This document shows, in pieces, positions 1-56,480 of a stretch of 64,000 bases of DNA (the stretch's first letter is position 1; the number at the start of each line of letters is the position of its first letter). The stretch is from the human T2T-CHM13v2.0 reference genome, Homo sapiens. Position numbers and translations under genes: made by a program. Under the pieces are notes generated by a model that searched no databases, was not told the DNA's origin, and saw only the letters and a list, made by a program, of their open reading frames with translations. The stretch lies in NCBI RefSeq assembly GCF_009914755.1, contig NC_060947.1, one strand, 5' to 3'.

Positions 1-3000
1 TAATGTAATTTAAATAGTAAAATTATTACAGAAAATATTAGAAATGTAACAGCAACAAGTAAAATGTAAATATATTTTAGTAATCTGTGAGCTTCAGTGT
101 CATTTCTGTGTTATAGGATGAATTACCTGGTGAATATGGGACAAGGGAAAAATAATCATTATGCCATTTTCTTTATGTTCATGTCCCCTTTCCTGTCTCT
201 GGTATTACCCTTTAGTGGATCATCAGAGAAATAGTTTTTCTACTGAGCCCTAGAAATAAATAACAGTAGTAGTCCTGCTTGTTAGAAGACTGAAGATAGA
301 AGATCTAGAATCCATATGCCAGATCCATTACCAATTACTGGACCATGGGTGTGTCTGTCTTTCTCTGAGATTGCCTCATTTCTAAAATACAAAGTACTAT
401 ATAATAGACTGAATAGTAAGAAACTGACATTTTTCTTTGTCAAAATGCTCCAGTTGTGACTATTTTATGCAGTTCATTTTAATATAACAGTGGTTAAGAG
501 TATGAGCTTACTATGATAAGACTTGGGTTTGAAATTAGATTCCACATCAAACCAGTTATGCTTTCTTTACCTGTAGTTTCTTGTCTTTTCAATACAGAAC
601 AGAATAGTATCTGCACCATTATATGTAATTGAAGATTTAATGTGATACTACAAGTAAAGCATTATTGATAGATACATACCAAATGCTCAATAAATGTTAG
701 TTACCTTTATTGTTGTTGTTATTGCTATTCTTGACCTTTTAAGAGCAAATAATGGAAGAAAATGTTATATTTTTAGTTATTAAGATGTTTTATGAAGCAA
801 CGACATTAAAACAAAGTAAGACTGGCAGAAAATCTGAGATATAGTTTAATGGAACAGAATAAAAGCTCAGTCCCCAGGTTTTAAATGTGATAAACTTGAT
901 ATTTCTAATCAGTAAGTAACATGGATTATTCTGGAAATGGTGTTGGGAACAGTTGGCAAACTTTTTCACTTAAAAATATAAATTTTGATCCTTTTCTTCA
1001 TAAACTATGAAGGAAAAAATCCAACATGGCACTGGTATAAAAAATGAATTCACAGTTTATTGGTAAATAACAAAAAGACTAGAAATATAACCAAATTACA
1101 CAATATGCATTTTCAGTATTTACCACTCTAGGTTATTAGTAGTTTCCAATTAAACAACAGTGAAACATCACCTTATTGGCAGGCAAAAATTAAAATGGTA
1201 GATGGTGGATGTCAAGTGTTGTTGGAGTCTATGGAGCCCTCCATGCACTGCTGGTAGAAATACATTCTGGAGAGCAACATAGAAGTGTTTAGTCATATAA
1301 AAGGTACACATTCTCAATGACCCAACATGTCTGCTCCAGGGTGAATACCTCAGAGTCATTTTTATATAGCTAAATAAAAGAATATGTATAAGGGTATATT
1401 TGTGGTGGTGAGAAGTTGAAGGCAACTTGGATATCTATCACAAGGACAAGGAAAAATATTTGTCTATTGTTGAGAATCATTAGATGTGCTATTGTGCATT
1501 TCTGATACCTGGTCCTTTCTTATCCACAAATCAACACTTACCAGCCAGTCAGTGAACCTCTCCCAGCTCCTGTTTCCTCAACCACAAAAATAAGGGAACT
1601 GCATGGACCATCATGGTGACTTTATTCTTTTTTATGTCCTCTGATGTATAGTTCAGTGAACTCTCATATAACTTTATGTTTTTGTCTCTACCTTTTTCAT
1701 ATTAGGATAATGGGCAATGACTTTGAACAGTAGTTTAAACATTAGGTGTTTGACTCTCTTTAAAAGGAATCATTGCTGTTAAGATCTTTAAGTAATAAGG
1801 ATAACCAGGCCATAATTCACTTATCCATATGCTGTAAGTGAAGCTATCTGGAAAAAGAGAAAATGAGAGCATAGAAAATGGCATTTTCTTGAGCACTGAA
1901 ATTTTACCTGAAAAAAGGTTAGAGAAACCTGATATAATATAAAAAGGCTAGAGAGACCTGATCATGGTGCTTTTTCTTCTTATTTTATCTCATGATCATT
2001 TTACAACTTTATTTTAAATTCCAAGCTATAAAAAGTAATATGTGGTAAAGTATAAGAAAATGTTGATCGTCACTGTAAAAAATTTCAATTACTCTAGGAG
2101 TATCTGAAGTAAAACGTGAAAGTCTAGCCCTCAAGACCAAACAGCATTATGTAATGCCTGTGTCTATCTATTGCAAATTCTCATGTAATTTAATGGAACA
2201 AACCTGCTTTTTCAGACCTCTTTCTGTGGCATCTGGATGAGTCATACTGTTTTCAGAGGGACTCTGCTGTGCCAAACTACATCTGCTGAAAAAAAGAAAG
2301 AAGAGCTTACCTTTAAGTGGGAAAATAAATGGCTCTCTCTTTCCAGGGTCTAAGGCAGACAGAATATTTGGAATCATTTAATTGCTTTCTGCATTAGTCA
2401 CCCGACCCTGATATAAAACTTTTACTATTAAGAAGTTTCTCTCAGGGATCAAGCCAGGCCAAAGTCCAGCACCAAAACCAGCAATTTTTGCCTAGTCATT
2501 TGTTTGAACCTTCCTTTCTCTTGGACACCAAAACATGACAGTAACAACTTTAAGGGTTCCAGAGAGGTGCAAAGCATTCAGAACAATGAAGGCATCTGTA
2601 ACATTTTGCAAAGTTGAAATATCTTTCTGTTTATCAAAAAATCCTTGAATGTTCTGGTAATGAGGAGAGTAGAGATCCTTCTTTCAGAAAACACTTGTGA
2701 TCAGTGGACAGAATAGCCGTCTACTCAGGAGATAGGAAAGAGAGAAGTTGGTATCTCTTAGGATAAGATCCGCACATAAGTTAAATTTTGGCTAAATGTG
2801 GTGCTGGTCTGGAGGTACAATTTGTCTCATAATAAAGATTATAGAAGGTTCCTAAAACAATTTTAGATATTCTTCATCCAGGGATACTGACTCCAAGTCC
2901 TATGTGCTTGCCATTAATTGCCCACAAGCTGCTTCACTATGTGCTTATGTTTAATGTTACCATTTACTACTGACCACTCTGAGGTGTATTTACTGTTATT

Positions 3001-3513
3001 GGGGCTTCAAAGCTTCGCTCAGTGGAATCTAAGGCCTGCACTTTTTAACAGGACATCACTACATCCACGCTCCTCACTTCCCTGAGGCTTGTTTCACTTA
3101 ATTCCAGTTTATGGACTTTAAACTGGTACAACTTTTCTTGTTGGCAGGCGGGGAATTAAATTAAGCATGTGTATACCATTTGAGGCAGCAATTCCATGCC
3201 TTGAAATGTACCCTAAGGAAATAGTTAAGGATGTGCACAAGTGTATGGAAACAATAAAATTCATCGACCTAAATTCCTGGCTTTGGTCTTTGCCACAAAC
3301 ATAAATTTATTTAAGGGTAAGAGAACACAAAGAATATCTATCAGGGAATATGGGATATGAAAACAGATAAGTGTTTAAGGACACACAAACACACACACTT
3401 ACAAGCCCTCATGTGCACACATCAAACTGGTCATCAAGGTCTACTTATAAAAGCCTAAAAAGCATGCAAATGTGATTCAGAGACACAAAGAGGACAAACT
3501 ATTATTAAACATT

Positions 3514-3559
3514 ATTAAAAGTAATGGCAAAAACCGCAATTACTTTTGCACCAACTTAA
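3514..3559. mobile_element. MADE1 (Hsmar1-derived MITE), partial
   Basis: AAAAGTAATGGCAAAAACCGCAATTACTTTTGCACCAACTTAA is one arm of the MADE1 palindrome. Confidence 0.85.
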
Positions 3560-4019
3560 TAGTAAATGAATTAAATCTATTTTAAATGCAAACGTGAAAT
3601 ACGTCCTTTAGCAATAAAAAAATGATTCAATGTCATTCATCTCACCACTGTTTATTATAGAAAAATTCTTAGTTCCAAGGTAGGATTACGAAAGTTTTAT
3701 GTCTTTTTTGATCTTTTGTATTAATTTTTTCTTTCACAAATAGGTGTTACTTATGAGATACATAAAATTAAAGAAGAAAGAAGGTCTGTCAATCAAAAAT
3801 TGTAAGGTTATCATCCATATAAGAGTGTAAGTCCCTGTAATTTTAATAGCCTGTGGAAACTCATTTGGTATTACCTAAATCAAGTTAAATGATAATGAAA
3901 TTGTAAAAGGGCAAAGCCACTCTTTAGCATACCAAAAATTATCATTAAGGATTGACACCACTTTTCGACTTCAATAAAAACATAGATGAGAAGTCTTAGA
4001 GGTGTAACACATCACAGTG

Positions 4020-4262
4020 GTAAACAAAACACAGACATGGTCCCTGTCCTTCTGGAGCTTGCAAACTTAAGGGAAAGATAGTGAAGCCAGCAATAATAAA
4101 GTTTCATAGGTGCTATGATAGGAGAACTCAGAGTGCTATGGAGCAAAGCAGATAGCACAAACACCCACCTGGTCTTAGGTGTTTTGGGGAGGCTTCCCAT
4201 AGGAAGTGATGTTTAAACTGAGACCTGAGGGATAAGGAGGCATTACCCAAGTAAAGAGGAGA
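4020..4262 (-). mobile_element. L2 LINE 3' fragment
   Basis: Typical L2 tracts ACAGACATGGTCCCTGTCCT and GGCTTCCC..GGAAGTGATGTTTAAACTGAGACCTGA. Confidence 0.65.
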
Positions 4263-4430
4263 GAGTGGAGCTAACGTGAGAGCCTAGCCAAATATAACAG
4301 GCAGGAAATACTCTATGACCTGGTTCATCCCTGGGGATATCCTGTGTGGAAATCCACTACCCGGTAGTTGGGCATGTCCGGAAACTGCATGAAACATAAC
4401 AGGACAATTGTAGAAAGTGCCTGAACTCTG
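4183..4430 (+). repeat. Ancient repeat module D (paralog of 35557-35802); left half is L2-derived
   Basis: Colinear, roughly 75-80% identical by eye, including non-L2 sequence (TTCATCCCTGG..GGAAATCCACTA..GTTGGGCATGTCC..AGAAAGTG). Confidence 0.85.
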
Positions 4431-4907
4431 TAGTTCATGCCCATGACAGAATCCAAGGTTGAGAGCTCCTAAGAGTTGTCTCATCCTTAACTCTTTCTAT
4501 AGCATCTTGACAGTGAGCTTCAATCAGGAGAAGAAAAAAAATCAATAGTATGTTAAAAAAAAATCAGTGTTTAAGTGATATAGCTGAAATGCTGATACTT
4601 TGCATATCAGGATGTCTCTACTGCACCCCTTTTCCCTTTCCTTTAGAGAGTGGTCCTTCAGGACTCCTATACTCCTCTGGTTTATGTTGGCTGTCTATGA
4701 TGTCTGAGCCTGGTTATGCGTGTACAGGCGAACACTAACACTGGGCATGTCTAGTAGAGCATAAACCATGTAGTTCTAGAACTCACGAAAGAGGAGGCCA
4801 GGTGGCAGTGATAGATTCAGGCTGGCAGTGGCTAACACACAGAAGATACTCAAACACTATATGGTGAATGGAAGGATGAATGGATGAATGAATGAATGAA
4901 TGAATGG

Positions 4908-6360: not shown

Positions 6361-6457
6361 AATTGAGATTGTATTATATGTCTGCTTTCTAAGCTGATTT
6401 TTAAAATATTGTGGATCTTTATCATTAAGTTTTTTTATTTCAATAAAACTTAAAAAA

Positions 6458-6649
6458 TACCCATTGATATTAATGAGAGTTGCAGTTTGAATATTATAGA
6501 GCAGGAAGCTTAGGAATGAGGGAGCTGTTCATGTTCCATCTTGCCAGTCAGCTTTTTGGAGGTCTCCTGGAGCAAAAATATTGCTAGAAAACTCAGCAAC
6601 TGCCTCAGACTTGAGAGAAGAGAAACAGACATCCCTAGCCTGATCAGAG

Positions 6650-6687
<38 letters not shown>

Positions 6688-6690
6688 TTG
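6458..6690 (+). repeat. Ancient repeat module A, copy 1 (most diverged; CTCF core decayed)
   Basis: AGTTGCAGTTTGAATATTATAGAGCAGGAAGCTTAGGAATGAGGGA aligns to copy 5 AACTGCAGCTTGGATATCACTTTAGCAAGAGATCTAGGAAGGAGGGA; ends in (TG)n. Confidence 0.55.
6651..6684. repeat. (TG)n microsatellite
   Basis: About 17 TG units. Confidence 0.95.
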
Positions 6691-7873
6691 TGTGTGAATA
6701 TTTTGGGTTATATATTTTAACATACTTTACACATACATTGATTTATTTTGAAATAATAACTTACCGTATATTTTCTAATCAGATTTTTCTCCATTTAAGA
6801 GTGTAGTTTGAAGACCTTTTCATGTCCATATGTATACATTATTAGTTTTATAATTCAGTTTCAAACCAGCTATTTTCTGTGTTTTGAAGGTATCAGTACA
6901 GTTATTTTTTCTGGCTATAAAATAGATATGTGGTTATTTAAACAAAGTGGAACAATATAGTAGTAGTACATTATTAGAAGGTAAAATTTAACCTCTCTTA
7001 CCTCACAACTCTTTACTCCAATGATATCACTGGTGCTAGTAGGCTATGTGTCCTTCCAGATGTTTTCTCTTGCCAATTAGATATTAACTTAGACATACCA
7101 ACAGACTATACAAATACACATATAATTTTATATTCCTTTGCAGAAATGAGATCATATATTCACAATGTTATGAATTTTTAAACCTAATATTATATCTCTT
7201 TGTTTTATTTTCATTTCTATAATTATTATTTGTTGAAATTTTTTCCACATTTTATTGCCGGGGTATTACTCTGAGATTTCTGCCTTTTAATAAGTATTTA
7301 TAAATCTCCATTTAGATTTTCTGATTTAGAAGACAATACAGAAGATATTTTAAAATGCCACTGGAATGCATTCTCCACTGTCCGGACCATCTCTAGGGAA
7401 ATTCCAGCCTCCCGAATGATTAGATTCAAAGCCCAGGAGGCTGCAGGTCAATTGGGAGAGAGCTAGGACCTTAGAGAGTGCAGGTTTTGAGTCCTCTCTC
7501 TGCCACTTTCGAGCCTTTAGACTTGAGGCAAGTTACTTATGAGTCTTATATTCTTCATCTGTTTAATGGAGATCATACTAGTTACTTTGAATGGTGGTTA
7601 CTAAGAATAAAGGAGGTAAAGTGTAATGTTTACCCTACACAGGATAAATCATACGAATGTTATGTTCATTCTCCCGATCTTACCTTCCCAAACTGCCACA
7701 CCAACGTTTCTGCCTGGACCCTGCACCATCTGAGGTACCAGTCAATCTGTGTCTTAGCATAAGGGGCATATTTCAGTACTACAATTGTTAATACAAACTA
7801 ATGCAATAGGTATCATATGTGCATGATACAGGTGACACACTACGAAAATTATCAAACCCCCTTTATTTCACTT

Positions 7874-8188
<315 letters not shown>

Positions 8189-8511
8189 CCTTTATTTCAC
8201 TTTCTAGGTTAATTCTAGAGAAGTTTCCCATTGAGTCTGAAAAGACAAGATGCCACAAAAGAACACAGCATAACAATGAATCTGTTTGAGGGGATATTTG
8301 CATTGAGATTCAGATGATTCAGGATCCGGCAACTGGGTAATTGTTGAGCTTATCTTAGGTAAGTGACTTCTGTTCTTTCAACCTCATTTCTATAATGGAA
8401 TAATGCTGTCTGTAAGTGTTTAATAACATGGATTTTGGAGACACACAGTCCATTATTACAACTTTGCCAATAACTGTGTGATCTTGCACGTTACTTAATC
8501 TTCTAAGCCTC

Positions 8512-8702: not shown

Positions 8703-10043
8703 TACATCTAACCAAGGGATAATAATACTACCTATTCTACATGGTGGTAAGGAAGAATCAAAGAGCTAACATATGAAACATTCTTAGCAGGATGACTAGC
8801 ACACAGTGAGGGTTCAGTAAATTTTAGCTATTGTTAGTATTATTAGTCCTCTCAACCAGGGCCAAAACCAGAGTGAAGCGAATAAAGTACATAGAGCAAA
8901 CAGTTTAAGGAGACATTCACTTTTGGGATTATGCAAATGCTAATGCTGCACCTGTACAGTCTTGAGTACCTCCATGAGAGAAAGTGCCTCTTTTACACTT
9001 GCCTCATCTTAGTCTGTAACAGGATTTCAGCTTGGTGTTTTGGTTTTGCTCACTAGAGAACTCAAGGAACTCTGAGCATCTGCAGTGTGCTTGGCACTGT
9101 AATTCCTTTATTATATATTTTACCACATCTATTCATCACTTGTAACTCTGGTGTGGGGAATTGTCACCTCCATTTCATAGATTAGGAGACTAAGGCACAG
9201 AGAGATAAGTATCTTGTTTTGGGCCACACATTCACTAAATGGTTAAGAGGTAGGAAGAAGTGTCCTTTTGACTGCCATGTTTCTTTCAGGATATCACAAA
9301 ACCTCAACTGTAAATCCTGTATTTCTAAACCAGGTAATGTTTTCTTACTGCGTTGATGTGTGAAAAAACTCAAATGCATGCATTTATTTCTAGGAAGATT
9401 CTAGTCTTTCCTCTCTTATTCATTAGCTGTCTGATCTTGAGTAAGTAATCGAACCTCTCTGGACTCCATTTTGTCACCTGTAAAAAAAGTGAGTTGAATG
9501 TCATTGTCAAGAATTCTCTAAATATTTCACATCCTATAATTCATAATTTAATTCTGCCTTTTACTTTTTTGTCTCTTTCCTCTTGTTAAGTGGACAGAAA
9601 TGTGCAAAGATGCCCTTAAATACTTCGAGGTGGAACTCTTTTTGAAAGGAACCTCTAAAAATAAAAGAATTCATAAAAATAAGACGATAAGCCATCTATT
9701 CTATATAACAGAATGTTATATATGGAGATAAAGTAATACAGGGCATATTTATTAAGAAATGTTCAAGAAACAGGAAATATTGTTTAAGATTATGCCTGAC
9801 ACAAAGTTAAGGAGAGAATCAAACAAAACCTGAGTGTATTAGCTGTGACTATAAAATAATAATCTTGGTGTTCTTGTGAGGGTTCATAAACTGGTTGCGA
9901 AGCCAGTTGCTACTATCTTGATCAATAACAATCTCTTTGCACAGGTATGTGACTTTATGGGAATGGGTGTCTCTTTTGAAAAGCAATCCTGGTCTTTGTT
10001 TAAAAGTCTGATGTTGGTGAGGAAGGATATAAATATACCCTAT

Positions 10044-10640: not shown

Positions 10641-11544
10641 CTTGATTTCTCAAACACTCAATTATAATATATAGCTCATTTTTTTCTCTTGCACAATCCT
10701 GGGTGGTTGAGGGGCAGGACAGGTAAAATTTAGGTAGGTGAGATCAGAAAGATGTGAAGGGATTTAACTAAAGTTGTCACGGAATTACTGGGTTAGGTCT
10801 TTTACTGGGAGGCAGACAGACCTCCTGACTTAAGTGGTCTCTCCAGAAACCAAAGTACTGGCATTGTTCCTATGAATACCTTGCTTTTTAAGGGAACAAA
10901 GGAACAAGGATTCTCTGACATTGACATGTAGAAAGTAAAATAAGAGGACAGGAAAGCACATGAAACATAAGAAGTGCATGCATAATATTATTATTTTTAA
11001 AAATCTGCCTCCACCTGCCTAGAAGTTCCTGTGCTCTTAGGAAAACTCTGACTCGAAGCATAAAAATGGTTCCCTTTTCAGAGAGGGCATTGATCATAAA
11101 GGGCCACAGGGATTCTACTGTAAGCTCAAAACTGTCCCAGAAATCTATCACTTTGTTCTGGCAGAAAGGGTTCAATGGAAAGCTTATTTTTTATGAGCAT
11201 TCATTACGTCTGGATCACAATTAGATCTCAATAAATATTGGTTAATTTTATTTGCATTGAACAGAATCTTCAGTAAGGTCTTATGGGTCCTGATCAGCTA
11301 TATCCAATGACAGTTGTTTTGATAAAGTTGACTACAAAGATTAGCAAAACCATGAATCAGAGAACTGAGCTTGGCAAGAGGAGACAGACAAAAAACAGAG
11401 AGAGGAGCTCAACATACAGATGAGCCAGATATTTCACCATGTCACTACTTCATCCCTGAGGAAGTCTTGTAGAAAAAAGTAACACAGCTCAGAGGAAAGT
11501 GTCTGTTCCTCAGAATAATTATTTATTGAACGAATGAATGAACA

Positions 11545-12120
11545 AGGGAGATGCAGACTTGGGAGTCATCACCAGCAAATAAAAGAGAATGTACCCTTTC
11601 TATATTTTTCCAGACATGAACATTTTTCAAATATATTTTGGATCATATTATACATACTGTTTCATAATCTATTAATAAGTCACAATGATTACTAGTGTTT
11701 CTGCTTGTAGAAATAGATACTTTTCTATTGCAGCAAAGATACAATATTGAGATAATTGCCACCTGTTGGTCAAATGCAGAGCTACATCTCTGACTGTCTT
11801 GGAGGAGGCTCCGTAAAGATTTGAGGAGGGAGGGGCCTCTGGCTTGACCCACCAAACAGGGCTTGCTGGAGGCTTGAATGGCACAGGCAGCCCTTCCTGC
11901 AGAATCTATTGCTGCTTGGCTTTCTGAGCTTCTGGCAGGAAGTTTCACCCTTATCTCAGATCAAGAGAAAGCTGCCAGTGTGAGTGTCTCTTGAGGGAGT
12001 GTGTATCAGTTTTGTGTGAGTGCGTTTGTGCGGATATTTTGTATTTTGGGTCATAGCCTTTTAGACACGTTTGCTTTATACTTACACTTACTCATACATA
12101 TAAGAGTATTATCAACGACA
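11545..12120 (+). repeat. Low-copy ancient repeat, head module A, copy 2 (paralogous to 51915-52445)
   Basis: Direct alignment by eye; core 11749-11991 vs 52085-52327 is gap-free with about 28 mismatches in 243 bp. Confidence 0.92.
11757..11786 (-). promoter_or_regulatory. Bipartite CTCF motif (core + M2/upstream motif), ancient repeat copy 2
   Basis: TGCCACCTGTTGGTCA, 5-bp spacer, then AGAGCTACA. Reverse complement resembles the CCASYAGRKGGCA core plus the TGCAG-type upstream motif. Binding is not demonstrated. Confidence 0.6.
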
Positions 12121-12760
12121 AATGGGACAGATTATATTATACATAAAGTATGCAATCTGGTTTTTATGCTTAATAGGGAATACCTTTCGAAGCGAGTGTT
12201 TCTATAACATCAGTTGTGTGAATCAGATCGTAACAAAATTTTTCCTGTGCTTTGAAAATTTTTATTTTGATTACTTTTCTGAATTGCAAAACGAATACAT
12301 ATTTGTCTTTTAATGATATCAAATCATGCAGAAATGTGTAAGTGGAAAATGAAATTGTGCTTTGTTTACCCTCTCAAGATAAACATTTTTAATGGTGTGC
12401 TAATATATTCTACAAATGTTTCTATCCCAATATAATGTACTAGCATATGTAAGTACTTTTATATAAAAGCCCTAAATATGTATATACACGATATAGATGT
12501 ACACCACTCTATACCTATTCTTCAACAAAGACAATGAGACAACATGTTAATCTGTCCCTTTCCTTTTTCCACTTACGAAATCTTAAAATTTTTGTTTGTA
12601 TTTCTTTGTTATTGTGTTTGGGTTGTTTTTCATCGGTTTGTTGGGGATTTATATTGCTTTTTATGAAAATTAGAAGTTACTCTGTATCCATCCTCTAGTA
12701 GTCAAAAAGAATTTTTTATATGAAAGATGACTGTACAATTAATTGTTCAAACTGACACTT

Positions 12761-14147: not shown

Positions 14148-14319
14148 TGACACTTTTGAGAGTAAAAGGTGGTCTGTGAAACAACAGACATAAATTGAAA
14201 CCACATCAAGCTATATGCTCATCTTCTTATATATTATGAACATTAACTCAATGTCTGTAATACACGTGCATCATTTTTTCCCATTTTATATTTCTTTTTA
14301 TCAGCTTTTGCAATGCAAA

Positions 14320-14935
14320 TGTTTCAAATTTTCATTTTATTATTAAAAGACAATGTGGTTAATTATAAATGTTTGAAGAATACACTAGAGTGGAGTAATT
14401 TGCCAGTCTAATGTGAGATAGACACAGAGAGCATTCAAAGCCCATAAGGCCACAAGATGCAGTGAGAAAAGCTTGGGTTTTAGAAAAATTTCAGGCTTAG
14501 ACTACCTGGTCTGTAATTTAGGATATTAATGACCCAGGTGGTTTGAGCTCTAGGTAAGAATGAAGATAGTAATCTTTACTTTGAATGTTTGTTTTTGGGA
14601 TTAAAGGAGATGAGATATAAAGTTACCACGATGTAGAATGATTTTCTTGTTCATTTCCATCCAGCAGATCACCTCTCCAGTCTTTTAAAGCCTGAGCTTC
14701 TGCCTGAGCCCACTCACCACTTCAGGGATCTGCCAACTCATGTGGCCCTACACCCAGGTCTCTTTGCGCAAAGGGCAGGATTTCAACTCCTCTATCTTCT
14801 TCATCACCCAAAGGGATTGTGGAGTGCAGATTTGTGGGTCCACAATAGCAGGGGAGTGGAATCTGACCATTTCTCAAGCCCTGGAAGCCCATCTTCTAAG
14901 AAGGAGGCTGCTCAGGGTTTTCTAGGGAGGGTGAG
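14320..14935 (+). repeat. Ancient repeat module B (paralogs at about 7300-7750 and 54030-54650), includes a MIR remnant
   Basis: Shared ATTCAAAGCCC at 7425, 14433 and 54150 followed by a MIR; downstream CTTCAGG(G)A(T/A)CTGCCAA and GAAGCCCA..GCTGCT blocks are shared with 54440-54640. Confidence 0.7.
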
Positions 14936-15179
14936 GGATGCAACTGCATTCCTGCCTCTTACCAGATGTGTGACTCTGGAAAATCGATTTATACTCTGTG
15001 AGCCTGAACTTCTCCACTGCAAAATGGGAAACAATTGATACTGTCCCCACAGAATTGTGTAGGGAAAATGAGGGAACTTAAGGAAATGTTTGGTGCATAA
15101 TATAACTTCAGCAAATGTTTGTTCTGCTCACCATGACTCCTCACCACGATAAAAGAGACTTCGACATAAAAGAAAGAGC

Positions 15180-15495
15180 AGAACTGTCAGAGCATTTGGA
15201 AATGTAGCAACAAGAAAGGAAATGTATAGGCATTTACATAATGTATGAATTTGGGTGCCATCTCAGTTGTAGAATGTTATCAGAAGAATTTGGAGAAAGG
15301 GAAGACAATATTGTACTATTTCCTTGTATTCTATTGAATTTCTGTCCCTGTTACTTCACTTTCTACTTGAACATCTGAAGAAATAGTTTTCCAGTAAGTT
15401 CTGGAAAAAGGAGACAGTACAGGGGAACCAAATATAATAAGGACCATTGGATCTTAGATGAGTCACTTCCTCTGTGCTGGCCTCATCTCTAACAC
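15180..15495 (+). repeat. Ancient repeat module C (paralogs at about 20-270, 8190-8250 and 37790-37975)
   Basis: GAAATGTAGCAACAAG..GAAATAGTTTT aligns to the window start; TGAGTCACTTCCTCTGTGCTGG (15459) matches TGAGTCACTTCCCCTGTGCTGG (37939). Confidence 0.7.
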
Positions 15496-17570: not shown

Positions 17571-17709
17571 GGTATTCATCGAATCTAAGACGCCACACTA
17601 TTTTAGGGACTACTAGGAAAAGCAAAATTCTGGCTATTATAATGGTAAGACAGCACTAATTTAGGTGTTAAAAGTGAAAAAATATATGCCTCTGAGACAC
17701 GGGGAAATG
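17571..17709. mobile_element. MER104-like TcMar MITE
   Basis: GTATTCATCGAATCTAAGACGCCA terminus and GTTAAAAGTGAAAAAATATATGCCTCT body. Confidence 0.5.
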
Positions 17710-34893: not shown

Positions 34894-35127
<234 letters not shown>

Positions 35128-37403: not shown

Positions 37404-37768
<365 letters not shown>

Positions 37769-44376: not shown

Positions 44377-45171
44377 CTCAAGTGCTTTTAGATAGTTATT
44401 TACGTTGTTTCCCAGGGTTTATAATTGCTAGCTATGGGAAGTTTGGTTCAATATGACTTATTTTGCCATTGCTGAAAGTAAAACATGTACTCTGCCTTTA
44501 ATTATGAAAAGAATGAGCCATTGACTTTCTTGCCTGAAGAGGTTGAATGCAATTTAATTGTGAAAGTGAGGGCTGTCTAGTTCAGTCAACATAGAGAATA
44601 CAAACAGGGATGAATTCTTTAGTTACTATAGGCAAAAAAGGTTTCATATGTAGATCTATATATTTGGAAAAGTGAAACATTAATTTAAATAAATAACATT
44701 CTTACCAGAATGCCTTGATTCGAAATATGTGAGCTCTTATAACAAATTATTGGAATTGACTTTCCTCCATAGCATACAGTGTCTTAAACCATAGCATGTT
44801 CCCTTCAGCTACACTCTCAGCTGAAATAACTTTGTATGTGTGAGGTATGAACATATAATAAATATATAGCGATATATTTTCAAAGGAAAATGTAACCTTA
44901 TCATAACATCTCTTCACAACATGCCTTTTTCATATAACAGCATATTTTCCAAGTAATGGAACACATTTCTAACATGTGATTTTTTTGGTTTACTTCACAA
45001 ACAGGCTTATCCTGTGTTTTCAAAAATATTATTTGGTTTACTTTCCCTGATTGTAAAATTAACATAAATTTTTTGCCAAAAACAAGTAACTGTTTTGTAT
45101 TTTTCTTTTCCTCTATCTATACTATGGTATTAATTCAGTTATATAAATTATAAATGAACATATACTTTTTT

Positions 45172-49374: not shown

Positions 49375-50919
49375 GAATTCAGAGATGACACAAACAAATG
49401 GAAAAACATTCCATGCTCATGGATAGGAAGATTCAATATTGTTAAAATGTCCATGCTGCCCAAAGCAATTTACAGATTCAATGCTATTCCTTTCAAGCTA
49501 CCAGTGACACCCATCACGGAATTAGAAAAAACTGTTTTAAAATTCATATGGAACCATAAAAGAAGCCAAATAGCCAAGCAATCATAAGCAAAAAGAACAA
49601 AGCTGGAGACATCACATTACCTGACTTCAAACTATACTACGAGGCTACAGTAACCAAAACAGCATGGTGTGCATACAAAAATAGGCACATAGAAAAAGAG
49701 AACAGAATCTAGAGCCCAGAAATAATGCCACACACTTACAACCATCTGATATTCAACAAAATCGACAAAAACAAGCAATGGGGAAACAACTTCCTATTGA
49801 ATAAATGGTGCTGAGATAACTGGCTAGCCATACACAGAAGACTGAAACTGGACCCCCTTCTTACACCATATAGAAAAATCAACTCAAAATGGGTTAAAGA
49901 CTTAAATGTAAAACTTAAAACTGTAAAGATGCTGAAAGATCACCTAGGAAATACCATTATGGACATAGGTCCTGGAAAATATTTCATGATGAAGATGCCG
50001 AAGCAATTTCAACAAAAACAAAAATTGACAAATAGGACCTGATTAAAGAGCTACTGCATAGCAAAAAAACTATCAACAGAGTAAACAGACAACTCACAGA
50101 ATGTGAGAAAATACTTGCAAACTATGCATCTCATAAATATCTAATATCCAGAATCTATAAAGAACTTAAACCAATAATCAAAAACCAACTAATCCCATTC
50201 AAAAATGGGCAAAGGACATATAGTAAAGTGAACAAACACTTTTCGAAAGAAGACATACACACAGCCAACAAGTATATGCAAAAAAGCTCAACATCGTGAA
50301 TCATTAGAAAAATGCAAATCAAAACCACAGTGAGATACCATCTCACACCAGTCAGAATGGCTATTAAAAAGTCGAAAAATGAAAGGTGCTGACAAGGTTG
50401 TAGAGAAAAATGAACTTATACACTTCTAGTGGTAATGTAAATTAATTCAGCCACTGTAGAAATACTGTGGATTTCTCAGAGAACTTAAAACAGAATTAGC
50501 ATTTGACCCAGCAATTCCATTATTGGGTATATACCCAAAAGAATGTAAATCGTTTTACCATAAAGACACATTCACAATAGCAAAGCACTATTCAAAGTAG
50601 CAAAGACATGGAATCAACTTAAATGCCCATCAATGGTAGATTGGATAAAGAAAATGTGGTATATATACACCATGGAATACTACACAATCGTAAAGAAGAA
50701 TGAGATCATGTCCTTTGCAGCAACATGGGTGGAGCTGGAGGTCATTATCCTAAGCAAACTAATGCAGGAATAGAAAACCGGATATCACATGTTCTCACTT
50801 ATAAGTGGGAGCTATACATGGAGTACATATGGATATAAAGAAAGGAACAACAGATACCAGGGCCTACTGGGGGGTGGAGGGTGTGGAGAGGGTGAGGATA
50901 AAAAACTACCTATCGGTTA

Positions 50920-51293
50920 TGATATGGTTTGGCTTTGTGTTCCAACCCAAATCTCATCTTGATTTGTAATCCCCAGGTGTTGAGGGAGGAACTGGTCGGA
51001 GGTGATTGGATCATGGGGGGTGGTTTCCCCCATGCTGTTCTCATGATCGTGAGTGAGTTCTCACGAGATCTGATGATTTTATAAGTGTTTGGAAGTTTCT
51101 CCTTCACACTCTCTCTTTTCCTGCCACCTGGTGAAGAAGGTACTTGCATCTCCTTCATCTTCCACCATGATTTTAAGTTTCCTGAGGCCCCCCTGACCAG
51201 CCATGTGTAACTGTGAGTCAATTAAACGTCATTCCTTTATAAATTATAGTCTCAGGGAAGTTCTTTATAGCAATGTGAAAATGGACTAATAGA
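50920..51293 (+). mobile_element. THE1D/MSTA solo LTR nested in L1 3'UTR
   Basis: Starts TGATATGGTTTGGCT; imperfect 5-bp TSD GGTTA/GGATA. Confidence 0.88.
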
Positions 51294-51914
51294 GGATACA
51301 CTGCTTATTACCTGGATGATGAAATAATCTGTACACCAAACCACAGCGACATGCATGCAATTTTCCTATATAAGAAACCTAAACATGTACCCTGAACTGA
51401 AAATAAAAGGTAAAAACAATAAAAAGAAAGCATCCGAAACATGCCACTTCTTTAAGTGATATTAGAAATGTTAGTTCCAGAATTCTTCATTCCATCAACG
51501 GGGGATTTTGATGTAAAATGAATGGAATAACTATATTAAGGATTATTTGAAAATATACACAGAAAACATGCAATATACACGTATTTATGTAACTTGTGAG
51601 CTTTGGTGTTACTTTTTGTAGCATATGCTTTCCTTTGGAGTTTGGAAGAGGAAAAGTTATTTGTGCCATTTCTTTTTATTATTTAATGAGTTATCCTGCC
51701 TATTCTTTACTCTTCAGTTTAACATTAGAGAAACACACACTCACTCCACACATGTAGAAACAAATTGCAGTCGTCTTTCTCCAAATGAGTATGTCCTGCA
51801 GGCAGTTGAAAATGAGAGTCTGGGCTTCAAAGAAAAGAGTGGGATGGACAAATGGACTTGAGTTGGCAGTGCCCAGCCCCCCCAAAAATACGTACAGAAT
51901 GGAAGAATAATTGT

Positions 51915-52445
51915 GAGAGACCCAGCTTTGGAAGTCATTATCAAAAACTAAAACAGCAATACACATTCAAGTTTTTTCTCTCCACATGAATTTTTCAAAT
52001 ATATTTTGTATTATTCATTTCATATTGTCTTTGTCTCTCTTTGCAAAAATTGTTACTTTTCCATCGCAGCAGATGTGGACTATAGAGATAATTGCCACCT
52101 GCTGGTCAAAGCCAGAACTACATCTCTGAATATCTGGGAGGAGGCTCTGTAAGGATCTGGAGAGGGAGGGGCCTCTGGCCTGACCCGCCAAACAGGGCTT
52201 GCTGGAGGCTTGAATGGCACAGGCAGCCCTTCCTGCTTAATCTATTGCTGCCTGGCTCTCTGAGTTCTTGGCAGGAAGTTCCACCCCTGTCTCAAATAAA
52301 GAGAAAGCCACCAGTGTGAGTGTCTCTGATAAACTATATCAGCGCATGTTTGTGCATGTGTCTGTATTTTGTATTTTGGGTTATATCCTTTTAAACACAG
52401 TTGATTTATAACATGTACTTATGCACACGGCAGTATTATCAACAA
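51915..52445 (+). repeat. Low-copy ancient repeat, head module A, copy 4
   Basis: Paralog of 11545-12120; shares a 49-bp identical run CCAAACAGGGCTTGCTGGAGGCTTGAATGGCACAGGCAGCCCTTCCTGC. Confidence 0.92.
52093..52122 (-). promoter_or_regulatory. Bipartite CTCF motif (core + M2), ancient repeat copy 4
   Basis: TGCCACCTGCTGGTCA (rc TGACCAGCAGGTGGCA, near-consensus core), 5-bp spacer, then AGAACTACA. Confidence 0.7.
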
Positions 52446-52524
52446 TAAGGGGGGGCCAATCATATTGTAAATACAATGTGTAATTTGCTCTTTTAAAAAA
52501 ATCTCACCGTTAACTATGAATTCC

Positions 52525-53003
52525 TTTTTAAAAATTAATTTCATTATAAATTGTAAGATGTACAACATGATGTTATAAGATACATATAGTAAAATGGTTA
52601 CTGTAGTGGAACAGATTAACATATCCATCATCATCTCACGGAGTTTCCTATTTTCCTTCTTTTGGCAAGAACAGCTGTAATCTACTCATTTAGCAAAAAT
52701 CCGAATGCAATACACTATTATTTACTATATTCCTCATATTGGACGTTAGATCTTTTGATTTGTTCATCCTACATGTTTGCGCTTTGTATCTTTGATGTAT
52801 ACATCTCCCCATTTCCTTCTCCCACCCTAACCCTTGTAACCGCTATTTTCTTGTCTCTCTCTATATTTGACCTTTAAAAAACATTTGACACATAAGTGGG
52901 ACTGTGCAATATTTGTCTTTCTGTGTCTGGCTTATTTCATTTAGTATAATGACCTCCAGGTCCATCCTTGTTGTGGCAAATGGCAGGATCTCCTTGTTTT
53001 TTA
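52525..53003 (-). mobile_element. L1MA 3' fragment
   Basis: GATGTACAACATGATGTT..TGTGTCTGGCTTATTTCATTTAG..GGCAGGATCTCCTT. Confidence 0.8.
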
Positions 53004-53366
53004 TACTACATTATTTATATTACTAAGTGCAAATTGCTTTCCAGGTCAGTAGACTTATACAAAATAAATTCCTGAGATTAGATTATAATAAGTTTTTATT
53101 TTTTCACAAATTTATAACAATTACTTTCCTAAATCACAAAACTAATATATGTTTGTAATTGAAAGAAACTGAGCAAAAGACATGCTAATGTGGAAATGAA
53201 ACAATCCTGTATCTACCTCCTTCACTCTGCTGAGGTATCCTTTGTTAATGGTGCAGAGCATATTCAACAGATGATTTTTTTTCTCCATAGAAAGAAAATG
53301 TTCCTGAGAATATATATGGAAATATGTATGTACAAAATACATAAAGATGTACAATGTGTGAACATG

Positions 53367-53757
53367 TGTTATGAGATGAATGTTTCTATCCTCCCAAATT
53401 TACGCATTGAAGCCCTAGCTTCCAAGGTGATAGTATTTGGAGGTGGGGCCTTTGGGGTACAATTAAGTTTAGATTAGACCATGAGAGTGGGACCCTCATG
53501 ATGGGATTGACGCCCTTATAAGCAGAGGAAGAGAGAGAGAGATCTCTTTCTTTCTTCACGAGTATGCACCAAGGGTAATGTGAGCAAACAGCAAGAAAGT
53601 GGCTGTCTACAAGCCATGAAAAGAGCCATCACCAGACGCTGACTCTACTGACACTTGGTCTTGGACTTTCCAGCCTCCAGAACTATCAGAAATAAATGTC
53701 TGTCATTTAAGTCACCCAGACTGTGGCATTTTGTTATAGCAGCCTGAACAGACAGCA
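53367..53757 (+). mobile_element. MLT1A-type (MaLR) LTR
   Basis: GTATTTGGAGGTGGGGCCTTTGG..GGACTTTCCAGCCTCCAGAACT..TTTTGTTATAGCAGCCTGAACAGAC. Confidence 0.82.
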
Positions 53758-55832
53758 TGTATATACACATATTCTTCATGAAAATGGGATGACTGCAAAC
53801 TTTGTCATGCAATTTACCTTCCCTAGCTGAGAATAAGGGTACCTGAATTTTTAGTTGTGTATTCATTGCTATTGGATATCTTCTCATAAGTTTAATTGCA
53901 TTCCTCTAATTTTCTATGAGATTTTAAATTTTCATTTGTTTCTCTTCTGGTTAAAGAGAGTTCCTGGCATGTAAAGTGGTTTCTGAGGTATATGTGGATA
54001 ATTTCCCCTCCAATTTTTAATGCAACTTTAAATGTTAAAATCTCATGGATTTTAATGATGAAGAAATCAATACAGTTCATTGTAAAAGTTTTTAAGATTC
54101 ACAGGAGTGTAAAGATTGCCACTTTATGAGAAGATTTTAGATAGAAACCATTCAAAGCCCAGGAAGACATCATAGTGAGAAAGGCTTGGGTTTTAGAGTC
54201 CCTGGCCTGTGTTTTACAGACTTGGCACTAAGGGTAACTTACTTAGCCTCTTAAGTCTTGGCTTTCCTCATTTCTCGTAAGCGATCCTTATTACCTACCT
54301 TGAATTTATTATCATATTTAGAAGAGATACAATATAAAATTCCTTAGATGTAACTCAAGCTTTGATAAACAAGAATTTCCTTCCTCCATGTCACTTTCCC
54401 AATGTCTAAAACTTGTACTTTCATCTGATTTATTCGCTACTTCAGGAACTGCCAATCAACATGCCTCCTAGCCTAGGACAGGATTTCTTCTCCACAAACA
54501 TCATCACTAAGGGGAGTTGTCTAAGTATTTTCCCATGTGGGCATGCCAAAGTTCAGCACAATACCAGAAAAGTTTACAACTATCATTTCTTACCCACATT
54601 GCATTGTAGAAGCCCACATCTACAATAGAAGCTGCTGGGTATACTCTGGGCATGTTCGGTGGCTGAATTTCATTGTTGCCACTTATCTGGATATGTGGTT
54701 TATCTTTGGCAAGCCTGGAGCTGATCATCAGTAAAATGAAAATAATGATGCTTTCTTTTCAGAGTTGTTTTAGGGAAATGAGAAACCCATGGGAGGCTTT
54801 AGTGCTTACTATCTTAGCCTCACCTTGCCTTCTCTGCAGAAGAGATGTCTGTGATAGAAACTAAATGCATAACTCTAAGAGAGAACAGTTGGGACCCTAA
54901 GTGTACAGAGGGAAATGTGATGTATTAGCCATGGTGACTGTCCAGTATTGCAGGATGAGTTACCTGAGGGGCTTTGGAAGGGAACAGAAAAATCCTCATG
55001 CCATTTCCTACCATCATATGTGCTTTCCTGTCCTTAGTACTTTGTCTTTTATGTTGTAAGGGAAGAAAGACTCTAAGAGGTGCAAGATAAAGAGATTTCC
55101 TTTGAGTCTTGGAATGAAGAAACAGTGCAGAGGAACCAATCCTAATAACAGATCTGCTGTACAGAAGGCTGCAGTCAAAGGAACTGTGTCCTGATAGCAG
55201 TCCTGTCACTTCCCCCCAAACAGATGTCTCTTCTCCAGAAATGCTACTATCTATCTTTGTGGGCATATATTAAAGTAGAGAAAAAATACTATAACAGAAT
55301 ACACCAAGATGTTAATTGTGTTTACCATGAAGGGGCAGGAGTGCTGGATATATTTTCTTGTCTGTATTTGACACTATTTTCCACATGGTCCAAAATGAGT
55401 GTGGATTACCTTAATAATAATAAGCAGAGCCTAAAAAAATGTACTTTAACTAATAAAGAGCACCCGGTCTGGAGATGCAGTGGAAGAAACAGGGCTTGGC
55501 CAGGTGAGATCTGGGCAGTTACTTTAGATCCCTGAGCCTCAGGGAGCCTGGAGCTTAATTCTTCACCCACAGGGCTCCCCTGGGGTGGGAGATGTGATGA
55601 AATCACCACATTGTCCACATACGGGCTCTATGCCGTTGTATTGATTAGTGACTGGTCCCTTCATGCTTTACAGAGAGTGACATTGTGGTATCCACTGCTT
55701 GAGTCTGTGGTCCCACTGCACACTATGACCCCATTTCCTTGATCCCAGCATTCTCAGCACAGTGTGATTCTCCAGGTATTATGTAAAGGATAAGGTGCTA
55801 TTTTGCTTTGTTTGTGTTTGTTTTTATGATCT

Positions 55833-56071
55833 GCATTGGTGGATCTCAATGTTTGGTCCCCAGACCAGCAGTGTCAGTATCACCTGGGAACTTGCTAGAA
55901 AGTGCTAATTCTTAGGCTCCATCCTAGACCTACTGAATCAGAAACTCTTGTGGTTGGTACTAGCAGTCTTTTCTTTCTTTGTTGTTTGTACAAATTTATG
56001 GGGTACCTGTACTCCCCAGTTTGCCACAAGGTCCAAAGTGATTCTGATGCAAGCTGAAGTTTGAGAACCAT
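55833..56071. mobile_element. MER5A (hAT-Charlie MITE) with a small insert
   Basis: GGTCCCCAGACCAGCAG..CACCTGGGAACTTGCTAGAA..CCTACTGAATCAGAAACTC..GTTTGAGAACCA. Confidence 0.8.
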
Positions 56072-56239
56072 ATTCTACAAAATTTAATGTAGTAAATGAA
56101 ATGTGTTAATTGCTGAGTTAAGGAATGAATCTTTATTTTATTTCCATACTTCTTCATAATCTCCATTCAAAGTACAATTTGTTCATTTTGTGAAATGAGT
56201 ATTTTTTTCATTGAAAAATAAAATTGAAATTGAAAGTCA

Positions 56240-56480
56240 ATCAATGCCATCTGTTGACCCAATCTAGAACTGCAGCTTGGATATCACTTTAGCAAGAGAT
56301 CTAGGAAGGAGGGAAAGGAGGGCTGTGTAAGCCCACCAGAATAAACTTTCTGGAAGTTATACGGCAGACAAAGCACTAAGCAGAGATGGCGACAGAGCCC
56401 ATGGGTATTAATTCATGTGACAGGATGTTTCCTTTGACCCCCCTCTCAAATTAAACACAGTTGAGTGAATGTGTATGTGT
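56240..56480 (+). repeat. Ancient repeat module A, copy 5 (diverged)
   Basis: Colinear with copies 1, 3 and 4 (CTCF head, CCCACCAGA..ACTTTCTGGAAG, GACAGAGCC, CAGGATGTTT, TG-rich tail). Confidence 0.7.
56245..56274 (-). promoter_or_regulatory. Bipartite CTCF motif (core + M2), ancient repeat copy 5
   Basis: TGCCATCTGTTGACCC, 5-bp spacer, then AGAACTGCA (close to the M2 consensus GGAACTGCA). Confidence 0.55.

What the first reader, a model, noticed from the sequence alone, without database searches (positions are those of the whole stretch)
20..56480. Hidden, decayed tandem array of a multi-kb ancestral unit underlies the whole window
Seen: after mentally removing TEs, four sequence modules recur in the same orientation and order D-A-B-C. 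Unit 0: C (about 20-270). Unit 1: D 4183, A 6458, B 7425, C 8190. Unit 2: A 11750, B 14433, C 15340. Unit 3: D 35557, A 36140, C 37790. Unit 4: A 52090, B 54150. Unit 5: A 56245. Shared MIR/L2/L1ME remnants sit at homologous positions, while L1PA/L1MA, Alu and MaLR insertions are copy-specific. Inference: an ancient (probably early-eutherian) tandem amplification of a unit of roughly 4-5 kb, later pulled apart by TE insertions. It is too diverged to register as a segmental duplication and I do not recognise it as a named repeat.
Basis: partly seen in the sequence, partly recalled or inferred. Interest (0 to 1): 0.8.

Follow-up and report, generated by a model that had tools for sequence, protein, structure and literature searches.

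The report
Decayed tandem duplication array in Xq22
The stretch between ARMCX2 and NXF5 on the human X chromosome does contain the worn-down remains of a few-kilobase non-coding unit copied head-to-tail many times long ago and later split by mobile-element insertions, but it looks like a neutral relic with no sign of a function.

Summary
A control with reversed queries gave only 5 hits, all simple repeats.

The modules are not dispersed TEs. Genome-wide, A has 3 copies and D has 2. B has about 40 copies, all on chrX 100.2-102.0 Mb. An old LTR-like insert in the same window gave 5,477 first-look candidates on many chromosomes.

Six-frame Pfam and Rfam searches found nothing.

Units are 63-78% identical (K2P 0.3-0.5). 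Two patches reach 80-81%. After TE removal the period is 3.5-5.3 kb.

- Recognisable modules cover only 17.5% of the window.
- There are more modules than D-A-B-C (pre-A, pre-B, C', X, E, F, G).
- Two unit variants exist: A-B-C, and inverted-B-A-C.
- The array runs from about -38 kb to +100 kb, into an NXF5 intron.
- A better-preserved 2.66-kb A-B tandem lies 1.79 Mb distal, in the cluster placed near RAB40A; further copies flank RAB40AL.
- Window 50.5-58.3 kb has a 91-92% inverted copy 590 kb distal.

Best reading: a neutral relic of local amplification in the eutherian-specific Xq22 region. It is a new member of a known kind, of moderate interest.

The parts
5..407 (+). Unit 0, module C. Its A start and an inverted B lie just upstream of the window, at -359..-66 and -1275..-826.
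   Evidence: nhmmer to 15173-15512 at E 8e-15, and also to 37797, 51513 and 54917; the upstream parts come
603..864 (+). Unit 0, module C'
   Evidence: nhmmer to 15625-15899 at E 3e-7; weak hit at 100420-100584
2165..2284 (+). Unit 0, module G (weak)
   Evidence: nhmmer to 19004-19123 at E 6e-4
4178..4442 (+). Unit 1, module D
   Evidence: 81% identical to 35553-35816. This is the only other long copy genome-wide, from 9 of 9 candidates scored.
6452..6957 (+). Unit 1, module A
   Evidence: nhmmer to 11762-12283 at E 4e-10, to 36164-36421 at E 4.5e-7, and to 56239-56480 at E 0.0096
7422..7792 (+). Unit 1, module B (first half only)
   Evidence: nhmmer to 14431-14777 at E 2e-12
8183..8282 (+). 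Unit 1, module C fragment (weak), directly after a copy-specific Alu at 7891-8190
   Evidence: Iterated C profile; pairwise score 26 against a shuffle maximum of 10-11
9065..9751 (+). Unit 1, modules E (9065-9251) and F (9364-9751)
   Evidence: nhmmer to 17449-17618 at E 9e-6 and to 17946-18329 at E 1.6e-9. E is also an inverted copy of part of B.
10860..10996 (-). Inverted fragment of module C
   Evidence: Iterated C profile, positions 149-282
11498..12482 (+). Unit 2, pre-A plus module A. The RefSeq silencer at 11754-11923 lies in its core.
   Evidence: 78-80% identical to 52032-52493. Only 3 places genome-wide. nhmmer also matches the A copies at 36031, 56142 and 6460.
14227..15192 (+). Unit 2, pre-B (14227-14297) and module B (14422-15192)
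   Evidence: nhmmer to 54139-54881 at E 3e-28, to 7423-7767, and to 76803-77237 at E 1.5e-31. 75-85% identical to 15 places on chrX 101.28-101.99 Mb.
15136..15899 (+). Unit 2, modules C (15136-15512) and C' (15625-15899)
   Evidence: C is 78% identical to chrX:100757464(-) and 100818677(+)
16190..16499 (+). Unit 2, module X
   Evidence: nhmmer to 35126-35374 and 55310-55484 at E 2e-4 to 6e-4
17449..19123 (+). Unit 2, modules E (17449-17618), F (17946-18329) and G (19004-19123)
35118..35816 (+). Unit 3, modules X (35118-35374) and D (35553-35816)
36022..37067 (+). Unit 3, module A (36022-36687) and pre-B (36947-37067)
   Evidence: nhmmer to 56177-56713 at E 9e-19 and to 11650-12005 at E 8e-8; 14227-14297 matches 37003-37074
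37734..37981 (+). Unit 3, module C, after a copy-specific Alu at 37388-37704
   Evidence: nhmmer to 15293-15497 at E 1e-11
44946..45088 (+). Isolated A-tail fragment, possibly the remnant of a further unit
   Evidence: Iterated A profile, positions 575-715; profile hit only
51482..52551 (+). Unit 4, comprising the C of the preceding unit (51482-51783), pre-A, and A (51977-52551)
53029..53349 (+). Unit 4, A tail, followed by a copy-specific dispersed LTR-like TE at 53363-53764
   Evidence: nhmmer to 12259-12482. The TE gave 5,477 first-look candidates at about 72% identity on many chromosomes.
54139..55484 (+). Unit 4, modules B (54139-54881), C (54841-55210) and X (55310-55484)
56137..57421 (+). 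Unit 5, module A (56137-56713) and pre-B (57308-57421, weak)
50534..58278 (+). Younger duplicate that carries units 4-5. It is 91-92% identical to chrX:100784885-100792271 in inverted orientation.

Best explanation
This is a fossil array. A non-coding unit of about 3.5-5 kb was duplicated locally and repeatedly, mostly head-to-tail. Its core order is pre-A, A, pre-B, B, C, C', X, and some units also carry E, F, G or D. The mechanism, unequal crossing-over or replication-based tandem duplication, is inferred.

The amplification most likely happened on the eutherian stem or early in placental evolution, while the eutherian-specific Xq22.1-q22.2 region was being built. The copies then drifted neutrally to 63-78% identity and lost or inverted parts. 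They were pushed apart by copy-specific L1, Alu, LTR and GK-retrocopy insertions.

Later events overlaid this:
- Two short patches, A2/A4 and D1/D3, are 80-81% identical. This points to gene conversion or small secondary duplications (inferred).
- A block running from about window 47 kb into NXF5, with units 4-5 on board, has an 89-92% inverted copy. That copy lies in the palindrome placed between the two NXF2 copies.

Related A-B units form their own decayed tandems around RAB40AL and RAB40A. No coding, RNA-family or BGW-promoter similarity was found. The array as such most likely does nothing today.
For: Real homology:
- 25 collinear plus-strand module pairs were found in the window, against 5 simple-repeat hits for reversed queries.
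- Pairwise local scores exceed the shuffle maximum in nearly all pairs.

Local array rather than TE:
- Order and strand are kept in 6 of 6 multi-module units.
- Further plus-strand copies lie at -38273 (A), 76679-77577 (B, C) and 98596-100584 (A, C, C').
- No A, C, D, F or G hit at E<1e-4 was found in the outer 122 kb of flanks. None was found in four 10-kb samples, two inside and two outside the Xq22 region.
- Genome-wide, A has 3 places from 3 of 3 candidates.
- D has 2 long places.
- For unit 2's 5,356 bases, only the B part matches at length (15 places, all chrX 101.28-101.99 Mb) and C matches 2 places.
- The distal unit gave 38 of 49 matches on chrX 101.04-101.99 Mb plus one in the window.
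- As a positive control for old TEs, the LTR-like insert gave 5,477 candidates on many chromosomes and a 2.3-kb TE gave 4,657 candidates.

Non-coding: six-frame Pfam scans of 14145-19501, 51400-56801 and L035 gave 0 families above chance. Rfam gave 0.

Age:
- K2P between units is 0.3-0.5.
- A distal tandem pair at 79% identity shares an Alu-monomer-like insert, so it is younger than that insertion.
- The region is absent from opossum and chicken (PMC1274310, section 5 read).
- The gene cluster expanded before the eutherian radiation (PMC7586669, passages read).

Insertions.
Against: - Only 17.5% of the window is recognisable module.
- 42.1-43.8 kb is unexplained, and 46.9-49.05 kb has no TE-like or module match apart from its first 190 bases and one weak chr2 hit. 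The claim that the gaps are all insertions is therefore shown only for most of 19.5-35.1 kb.
- Units differ in content. B occurs in both orientations and has about 40 copies spread over 1.8 Mb. This is TE-like behaviour for that one module.
- A2-A4 is much more similar than the rest of units 2 and 4 (80% against 68% for B2-B4), so a single neutral clock does not fit.
- A regular period can be shown only for units 0-2 and 4-5.
- No other species was examined.
- No Dfam or RepeatMasker check was possible.
- The genome search misses copies below about 70% identity.
Confidence: 0.75

Rival explanations
1. The copies are a mosaic of separate, non-tandem segmental duplications (duplicative transposition within Xq22) that happen to lie on the same strand. 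No tandem amplification of one unit took place.
For: Units differ in module content, and two variants exist (A-B-C, and inverted-B-A-C). Copies are also found 0.6-1.8 Mb away in both orientations. A younger inverted duplicate demonstrably moved units 4-5.
Against: C is followed directly by A at 51482-51977, and A4 to A5 is 4.16 kb. A1 to A2 is 5.16 kb, so these copies are adjacent head-to-tail. All in-array A and C copies but one C fragment are on the plus strand. A clean 2.66-kb tandem of the same A-B unit exists distally.
Confidence: 0.12
2. The units are relics of, or still serve as, functional elements. They could be a decayed multi-copy gene or pseudogene family, or repeated cis-regulatory modules with the A core as a silencer-like element.
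For: The RefSeq silencer at 11754-11923 lies in the A2 core and an enhancer at 10622-11187 lies next to it (hub annotation). The A2/A4 block is better conserved than its surroundings. The A alignment keeps short motifs in all 9 copies, for example a CACCTG-containing stretch. X-linked multi-copy gene arrays are common; this last point is recalled, not tested.
Against: No Pfam family was found in any of six frames of three units. There is no similarity to ARMCX2 or its 5' region. Only 8-10 invariant columns remain among the 9 A copies. The other A copies are as diverged as neutral DNA. The annotated elements come from high-throughput reporter screens; that is recalled.
Confidence: 0.08
3. Several copies of one long, undescribed or poorly known mobile element inserted independently in this region.
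For: Module B behaves in part like a mobile or dispersed element. It occurs on both strands, has about 40 copies, and has internal E-like direct sub-repeats.
Against: All long copies lie within 1.8 Mb of one chromosome. Nine A copies and nine plus-strand C copies (plus one inverted C fragment) sit within 140 kb. There are no coding remnants. Copies are not 5'-truncated with a common 3' end, as LINE copies are. Two true old TEs in the same window gave thousands of candidates with the same tool.
Confidence: 0.04

Closest known systems
Ancient tandem or segmental duplications below the 90% identity threshold (the kind seen in whole-genome self-alignments; recalled)
   Same: Local paralogous copies on the same strand and in the same order. 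They are neutral, non-coding and interrupted by later TEs.
   Different: Nothing in kind. This particular array and its Xq22-wide relatives were not found in four literature searches.
X-linked macrosatellites such as DXZ4 or the CT47 array (recalled)
   Same: A kilobase-size unit repeated head-to-tail on the X chromosome.
   Different: Macrosatellite units are nearly identical and are kept so by concerted evolution. Here units are 63-81% identical, differ in content and are broken by insertions. Copy-number variation was not examined.
BGW (BEX/TCEAL/ARMCX/GPRASP) gene-cluster expansion of Xq22.1-q22.2 (PMC1274310; PMC7586669)
   Same: Same eutherian-specific region and probably the same era. 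Both involve repeated local duplication. Non-coding gene conversion is documented there, which would explain the 80-81% patches.
   Different: No similarity to ARMCX2 or its 5' region was found. No coding similarity was found. The published accounts that were read deal with genes and the 60-base BGW motif, not with intergenic units.
NXF5/NXF2 paralogous block (segmental duplication; gene names placed by coordinate offset to the table in PMC1274310)
   Same: Window 50.5-58.3 kb is 91-92% identical to its distal copy, and the NXF5-intron unit is 89% identical to its distal copies.
   Different: This is a much younger event that merely carried array units along. It does not explain the array.

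Membership tests
Tandem (head-to-tail) duplication array | Copies on the same strand | tested here: met
   All A copies (9), all full B copies in A-B-C units (4) and 9 of 10 C copies are on the plus strand.
Tandem (head-to-tail) duplication array | Same internal order of parts in each copy | tested here: met
   A<B<C in 6 of 6 units that have at least two of them. A second variant has inverted B before A.
Tandem (head-to-tail) duplication array | Copies adjacent at a regular period | tested here: inconclusive
   After TE removal the period is 3.6-5.3 kb for units 0-2 and 4-5. Units 2-3 and 3-4 are 24 and 16 kb apart, and only part of that is shown to be insertion.
Segmental duplication (at least 1 kb at 90% identity or more) | Identity of at least 90% over at least 1 kb | tested here: not met
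   Array units are 63-81% identical. Only the separate block 50534-58278 meets the threshold, at 91-92%.
Interspersed transposable-element family | Many copies on many chromosomes | tested here: not met
   A has 3 places and D has 2 long places. The B and distal-unit copies are all on chrX 100.2-102.0 Mb. Control TEs gave 4,657-5,477 candidates. Copies below about 70% identity would be missed.
Interspersed transposable-element family | Coding remnants of transposition proteins, or a match to a curated consensus | tested here: not met
   Six-frame Pfam found nothing above chance. Comparison with Dfam or Repbase consensus sequences was not possible.
Macrosatellite | Near-identical units homogenised by concerted evolution | tested here: not met
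   Pairwise identity is 63-81%.
BGW-cluster gene or pseudogene | BGW motif or 5' UTR similarity, or BEX/TCEAL/ARMCX coding similarity | tested here: not met
   ARMCX2 plus 1 kb on each side gave no hit in the window. No Pfam family was found. The BGW motif itself was not available as a query.

The most novel reading that the evidence does not exclude
The A-B(-C) unit is the seed repeat of a fossil macrosatellite. Repeated amplification, inversion and relocation of this repeat supplied much of the gene-poor DNA of the eutherian-specific Xq22.1-q22.2 region (the ARMCX2-NXF5, NXF2, RAB40AL and RAB40A intervals). That would give a concrete mechanism for how an interval of less than 10 kb between GLA and GLRA4 grew to 2.3 Mb.
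Probability: 0.15. Interest if true: 0.65.

Novelty: new member of a known kind. Interest (0 to 1): 0.4.

Why it matters
The 2.3-Mb Xq22.1-q22.2 region is a eutherian innovation. Its genes (BEX, TCEAL, ARMCX, GPRASP, NXF) have been studied, but how the intergenic bulk arose has not been described in the papers I could search. This array and its better-preserved relatives near RAB40A and RAB40AL show that at least some gene-poor intervals grew by repeated local duplication of a non-coding unit. They also give datable markers (unit trees, shared inserts) for reconstructing that growth. In practical terms, it explains low-identity self-alignments in this interval. It also shows that a RefSeq 'silencer' sits in one copy of a repeated module.

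Tried and rejected
- Plain blastn self-comparison found only the two youngest pairs plus three short ones, so it was too insensitive.
- Global MAFFT identities of about 50% were uninformative.
- Two genome searches were swamped by repeats. One search was swamped by the Alu at 37400-37700 and gave nothing on unit 3. One search was partly swamped by an LTR-like insert, which then served as a positive control.
No profile-level genome-wide census was therefore possible.
- Earlier findings were not open.
The controls are therefore only the outer 122 kb of flanks plus four 10-kb samples. No autosomal control was obtained.
- The idea that the units are BGW-type gene relics was rejected. There is no similarity to ARMCX2 or its 5' region and no Pfam signal.
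- The idea that D1-D3 and A2-A4 mark one larger secondary duplication was rejected. A1 and A3, which would lie inside it, are only 72% identical over 87 bases.
- The idea that the modules are spread evenly through the Xq22 region gained no support. There were 0 module hits in two 10-kb samples at 100.45 and 101.15 Mb.
Full report
**The window.** The window is T2T-CHM13 chrX:100192001-100256000, between ARMCX2 and NXF5 (hub annotation). It has no N and no soft-masking.

A blastn self-comparison gave 130 non-self pairs. Most are L1 and Alu. A few are low-copy pairs on the same strand:
- 4175-4426 with 35549-35802 (81%).
- 11696-12165 with 52032-52493 (78%).
- Three short pairs: 14426-14484 with 54143-54197, 14227-14297 with 37003-37074, and 15445-15495 with 37925-37975.

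nhmmer was much more sensitive. It was run with 160 overlapping 800-base tiles against the window and gave 871 hits at E<=0.01, of which 711 were non-self. I removed everything overlapping a region that also has minus-strand hits, and collapsed redundant hits. That left 39 plus-strand pairs. The other 14 are L1 (23.2-26.4 kb with 60.5-63.0 kb), duplications internal to TEs, or simple repeats.

The same tiles reversed (not complemented) gave 5 hits, all in simple repeats. The homologies are therefore far beyond chance. The weakest is C at 8183-8282, which only an iterated profile picked up. Its pairwise score is 26 against a shuffle maximum of 10-11.

**Anatomy.** In window coordinates:

| Unit | Modules and positions |
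|---|---|
| 0 | inverted B -1275..-826; A start -359..-66; C 5-407; C' 603-864; G 2165-2284 |
| 1 | D 4178-4442; A 6452-6957; B 7422-7792; C 8183-8282; E 9065-9251; F 9364-9751 |
| 2 | pre-A and A 11498-12482; pre-B 14227-14297; B 14422-15192; C 15136-15512; C' 15625-15899; X 16190-16499; E 17449-17618; F 17946-18329; G 19004-19123 |
| 3 | X 35118-35374; D 35553-35816; A 36022-36687; pre-B 36947-37067; C 37734-37981 |
| 4 | C 51482-51783; A 51977-52551; A tail 53029-53349; B 54139-54881; C 54841-55210; X 55310-55484 |
| 5 | A 56137-56713; pre-B 57308-57421 |

- The order A<B<C holds in all 6 units that have at least two of these modules.
- Where copies are adjacent, the A-to-A distance is 5,155 bases for units 1 to 2 (about 4.7 kb without the Alu pieces). 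It is 4,160 bases for units 4 to 5 (about 3.6 kb without the LTR-like insert and an L1 fragment).
- C is followed directly by the next A at 51783/51977.
- Recognisable modules make up 11,173 bases, or 17.5% of the window. That is 32% of 1-19.2 kb, 54% of 35.1-38.0 kb, 55% of 51.45-57.45 kb, and practically none of the two gaps.

**The array is not confined to the window.** I fetched 100 kb on each side and found further plus-strand copies:
- A at -38273..-37178.
- B and C at 76679-77577.
- Inverted B, A, C and C' at 97954-100584. This last unit lies inside NXF5 (84716-110189, minus strand).

A second unit variant, with B inverted and upstream of A, occurs at -6.9 kb, at -1.3 kb (this is unit 0) and at 97.9 kb. 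Between -12.6 and -0.8 kb there is a further local duplication.

**Is it a dispersed TE?** The human genome can be searched with DNA queries.
- A (11696-12165) has 3 places genome-wide, from 3 of 3 candidates: itself, A4, and chrX:100790334 on the minus strand.
- D has one other long copy, from 9 of 9 candidates. The rest are matches of 44-93 bases.
- Unit 2's 5,356 bases (14145-19500) gave 50 matches from 40 candidates:
  - itself;
  - 15 places for the B part only, all on chrX 101.28-101.99 Mb at 74-85% identity and on both strands;
  - 2 places for C (chrX:100757464 minus and 100818677 plus);
  - 32 short matches, mostly to a simple repeat at about 17.9 kb.
- By contrast, two genuine old TEs in the same window behaved as TEs should. 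The LTR-like insert at 53363-53764 gave 5,477 first-look candidates at about 72% identity on many chromosomes. The 2.3-kb element at 26460-28750 gave 4,657 candidates. The tool can therefore see old dispersed families.
- Iterated profiles of A, C, D, F and G found nothing at E<1e-4 in the outer 122 kb of flanks. They found nothing in four 10-kb samples, two inside and two outside the Xq22 region.
- No autosomal control could be fetched.
- Six-frame Pfam scans with stops read as X gave no family for 14145-19501 or 51400-56801. For the distal locus L035 they gave only two chance-level rows, at E 0.035-0.046 and below the curated cut-offs.
- Rfam found nothing in the window.
- ARMCX2 with 1 kb on each side has no similarity to the window.

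**Relatives elsewhere in Xq22.**

Module B, and with it A, belongs to a family restricted to this part of the X.
- L035 (chrX:101980001-101988000) holds a clean tandem. Positions 759-3397 match 3423-6019 at 79% identity, a period of 2.66 kb, and each copy carries A then B.
- In both copies an Alu-monomer-like piece of about 130 bases interrupts B at the same point. That duplication is therefore younger than the insertion.
- A 2.3-kb query from the distal unit gave 49 matches:
  - itself;
  - 38 on chrX 101.04-101.99 Mb at 68-90% identity, on both strands;
  - one in the window (14691-15029, 81%);
  - 9 short matches elsewhere.
- In L034 a B-C junction lies about 215 bases upstream of a 278-residue Ras plus SOCS-box ORF. 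By its position this is RAB40AL.
- Gene names for the distal places rest on a constant offset of about 417.8 kb to the coordinate table in PMC1274310. The offset was checked at ARMCX2 and NXF5, and it places RAB40AL within about 0.4 kb of that ORF.

**A younger duplicate overlaps the finding.**
- Window 50534-58278 is 91-92% identical to chrX:100784885-100792271 in inverted orientation.
- Window 46904-47089 matches two symmetric places, 100782444 plus and 100793607 minus.
- The NXF5-intron unit matches 100756797 minus and 100816595 plus at 89%.

Together these describe a palindrome centred near 100,788.1 kb. Its left arm and spacer are an inverted paralogue of the stretch from about window 47 kb into NXF5. 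By the offset this is the NXF2/NXF2B region. Units 4 and 5 were carried along, so the array predates that event.

**Age and history.**
- Local pairwise alignments give 63-78% identity (K2P 0.3-0.5) for most module pairs. A2-A4 is 80% and D1-D3 is 81%, both K2P 0.23. Local alignments keep the best-preserved stretches, so these distances are underestimates.
- The two better patches are not part of one larger secondary duplication. A1 and A3, which would lie within it, are no closer than other pairs.
- Gene conversion, documented for non-coding sequence in this region (PMC1274310, passages read), or small secondary duplications are the likely causes. This is inference.
- An upper age bound comes from the literature. 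GLA and GLRA4 are less than 4 kb apart in chicken and 10 kb apart in opossum, so the whole 2.3 Mb between them is a eutherian innovation (PMC1274310, section 5 read in full).
- The array units are more diverged than the distal pair that postdates an Alu-monomer-like insertion. A eutherian-stem to early-placental origin is therefore the best inference. No other species could be examined.

**Insertions.** Copy-specific insertions are shown for:
- L1 at 4896-6362 and 12770-14144;
- Alus at 7891-8190 and 37388-37704;
- the LTR-like element at 53363-53764;
- in the 19.5-35.1 kb gap, L1 at 20.6-26.4 kb, the 2.3-kb TE, a GK retrocopy at 29613-33252, an L1 fragment and two Alus.

Together the elements in that gap account for roughly 12.7 of 15.9 kb. 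In the 38.0-51.4 kb gap only about half is L1. 46.9-49.05 kb has no TE-like or module match apart from its first 190 bases and one weak chr2 hit, and 42.1-43.8 kb was not tested. 'Pulled apart by TEs' is therefore only partly shown there.

**Verdict.** It is too simple in its detail.

This is a decayed duplication array, which is a known kind of thing, in a region of evolutionary interest. Four literature searches found no description of it. Those searches cover only the held open-access library, and no Dfam or self-chain resource could be consulted.

I see no evidence of present function. A RefSeq silencer (11754-11923) lies in the A2 core, which keeps the regulatory rival alive at low odds.

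The boldest reading is that this unit family supplied much of the gene-poor DNA of the eutherian-specific region. It is not excluded, but it got no support from two 10-kb samples inside the region.

Noticed in passing
window 29613-31060 (and the annotated GK4P at 31065-33252): This stretch is 99% identical to chrX:30323092-30324538 and 95-96% identical to two chr4 places. The GK-derived retrocopy therefore seems to extend about 1.45 kb beyond the annotated GK4P span, and it is very young.
   Followed up: partly
window 57222-57968: 82-85% match to chr4:107412868-107413921, with no other copy apart from the 91% distal paralogue. It is a low-copy piece of unknown origin inside unit 5, possibly a retrocopy fragment.
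   Followed up: no
window 35852-35966 and 37230-37340: A 103-115-base direct repeat at 92% identity, 1.38 kb apart, brackets A3 and pre-B3. It is much younger than the array and is unexplained.
   Followed up: no
window 26707-26776 and 35239-35308; also 117086-117155(-) and 162878-162948(-) in L019 and L023: A 70-base element at about 88% identity, with 4 copies in 264 kb on both strands. It is probably a small interspersed repeat and sits inside module X3. There was no Rfam match.
   Followed up: partly
window 10533-10640: An AT-rich, self-complementary tandem repeat (TRF periods 5, 7 and 28; inverted self-hit at 82%) lies at the edge of the RefSeq enhancer 10622-11187.
   Followed up: no
L004-L005, window coordinates -87640..-87000 and -83732..-83125: The 5' region of ARMCX2 has an inverted copy about 4 kb upstream (nhmmer E 1e-25). 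It may be a second BGW-type promoter relic.
   Followed up: no
L034 5765-7114 (chrX:101381765-101383114): A B-C junction of the repeat family lies about 215 bases upstream of a 278-residue Ras plus SOCS-box ORF, RAB40AL by position. The retrogene appears to sit inside a unit.
   Followed up: partly
L012-L013, window coordinates -12600..-800: A further old local duplication lies upstream of the window: -12585..-9806 matches -3499..-1917, and -7507..-6446 matches -1672..-836 (E down to 1.5e-29). It includes the inverted B copies.
   Followed up: partly
window 63626-65669 (continues into L014): An internal tandem duplication of about 1.2 kb sits at the 3' end of the L1 at 58.5-64 kb (64002-64431 matches 65213-65643). 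L1 3' parts of similar type, all on the plus strand, lie at -34.4, 23.2, 60.5 and 71.1 kb.
   Followed up: no
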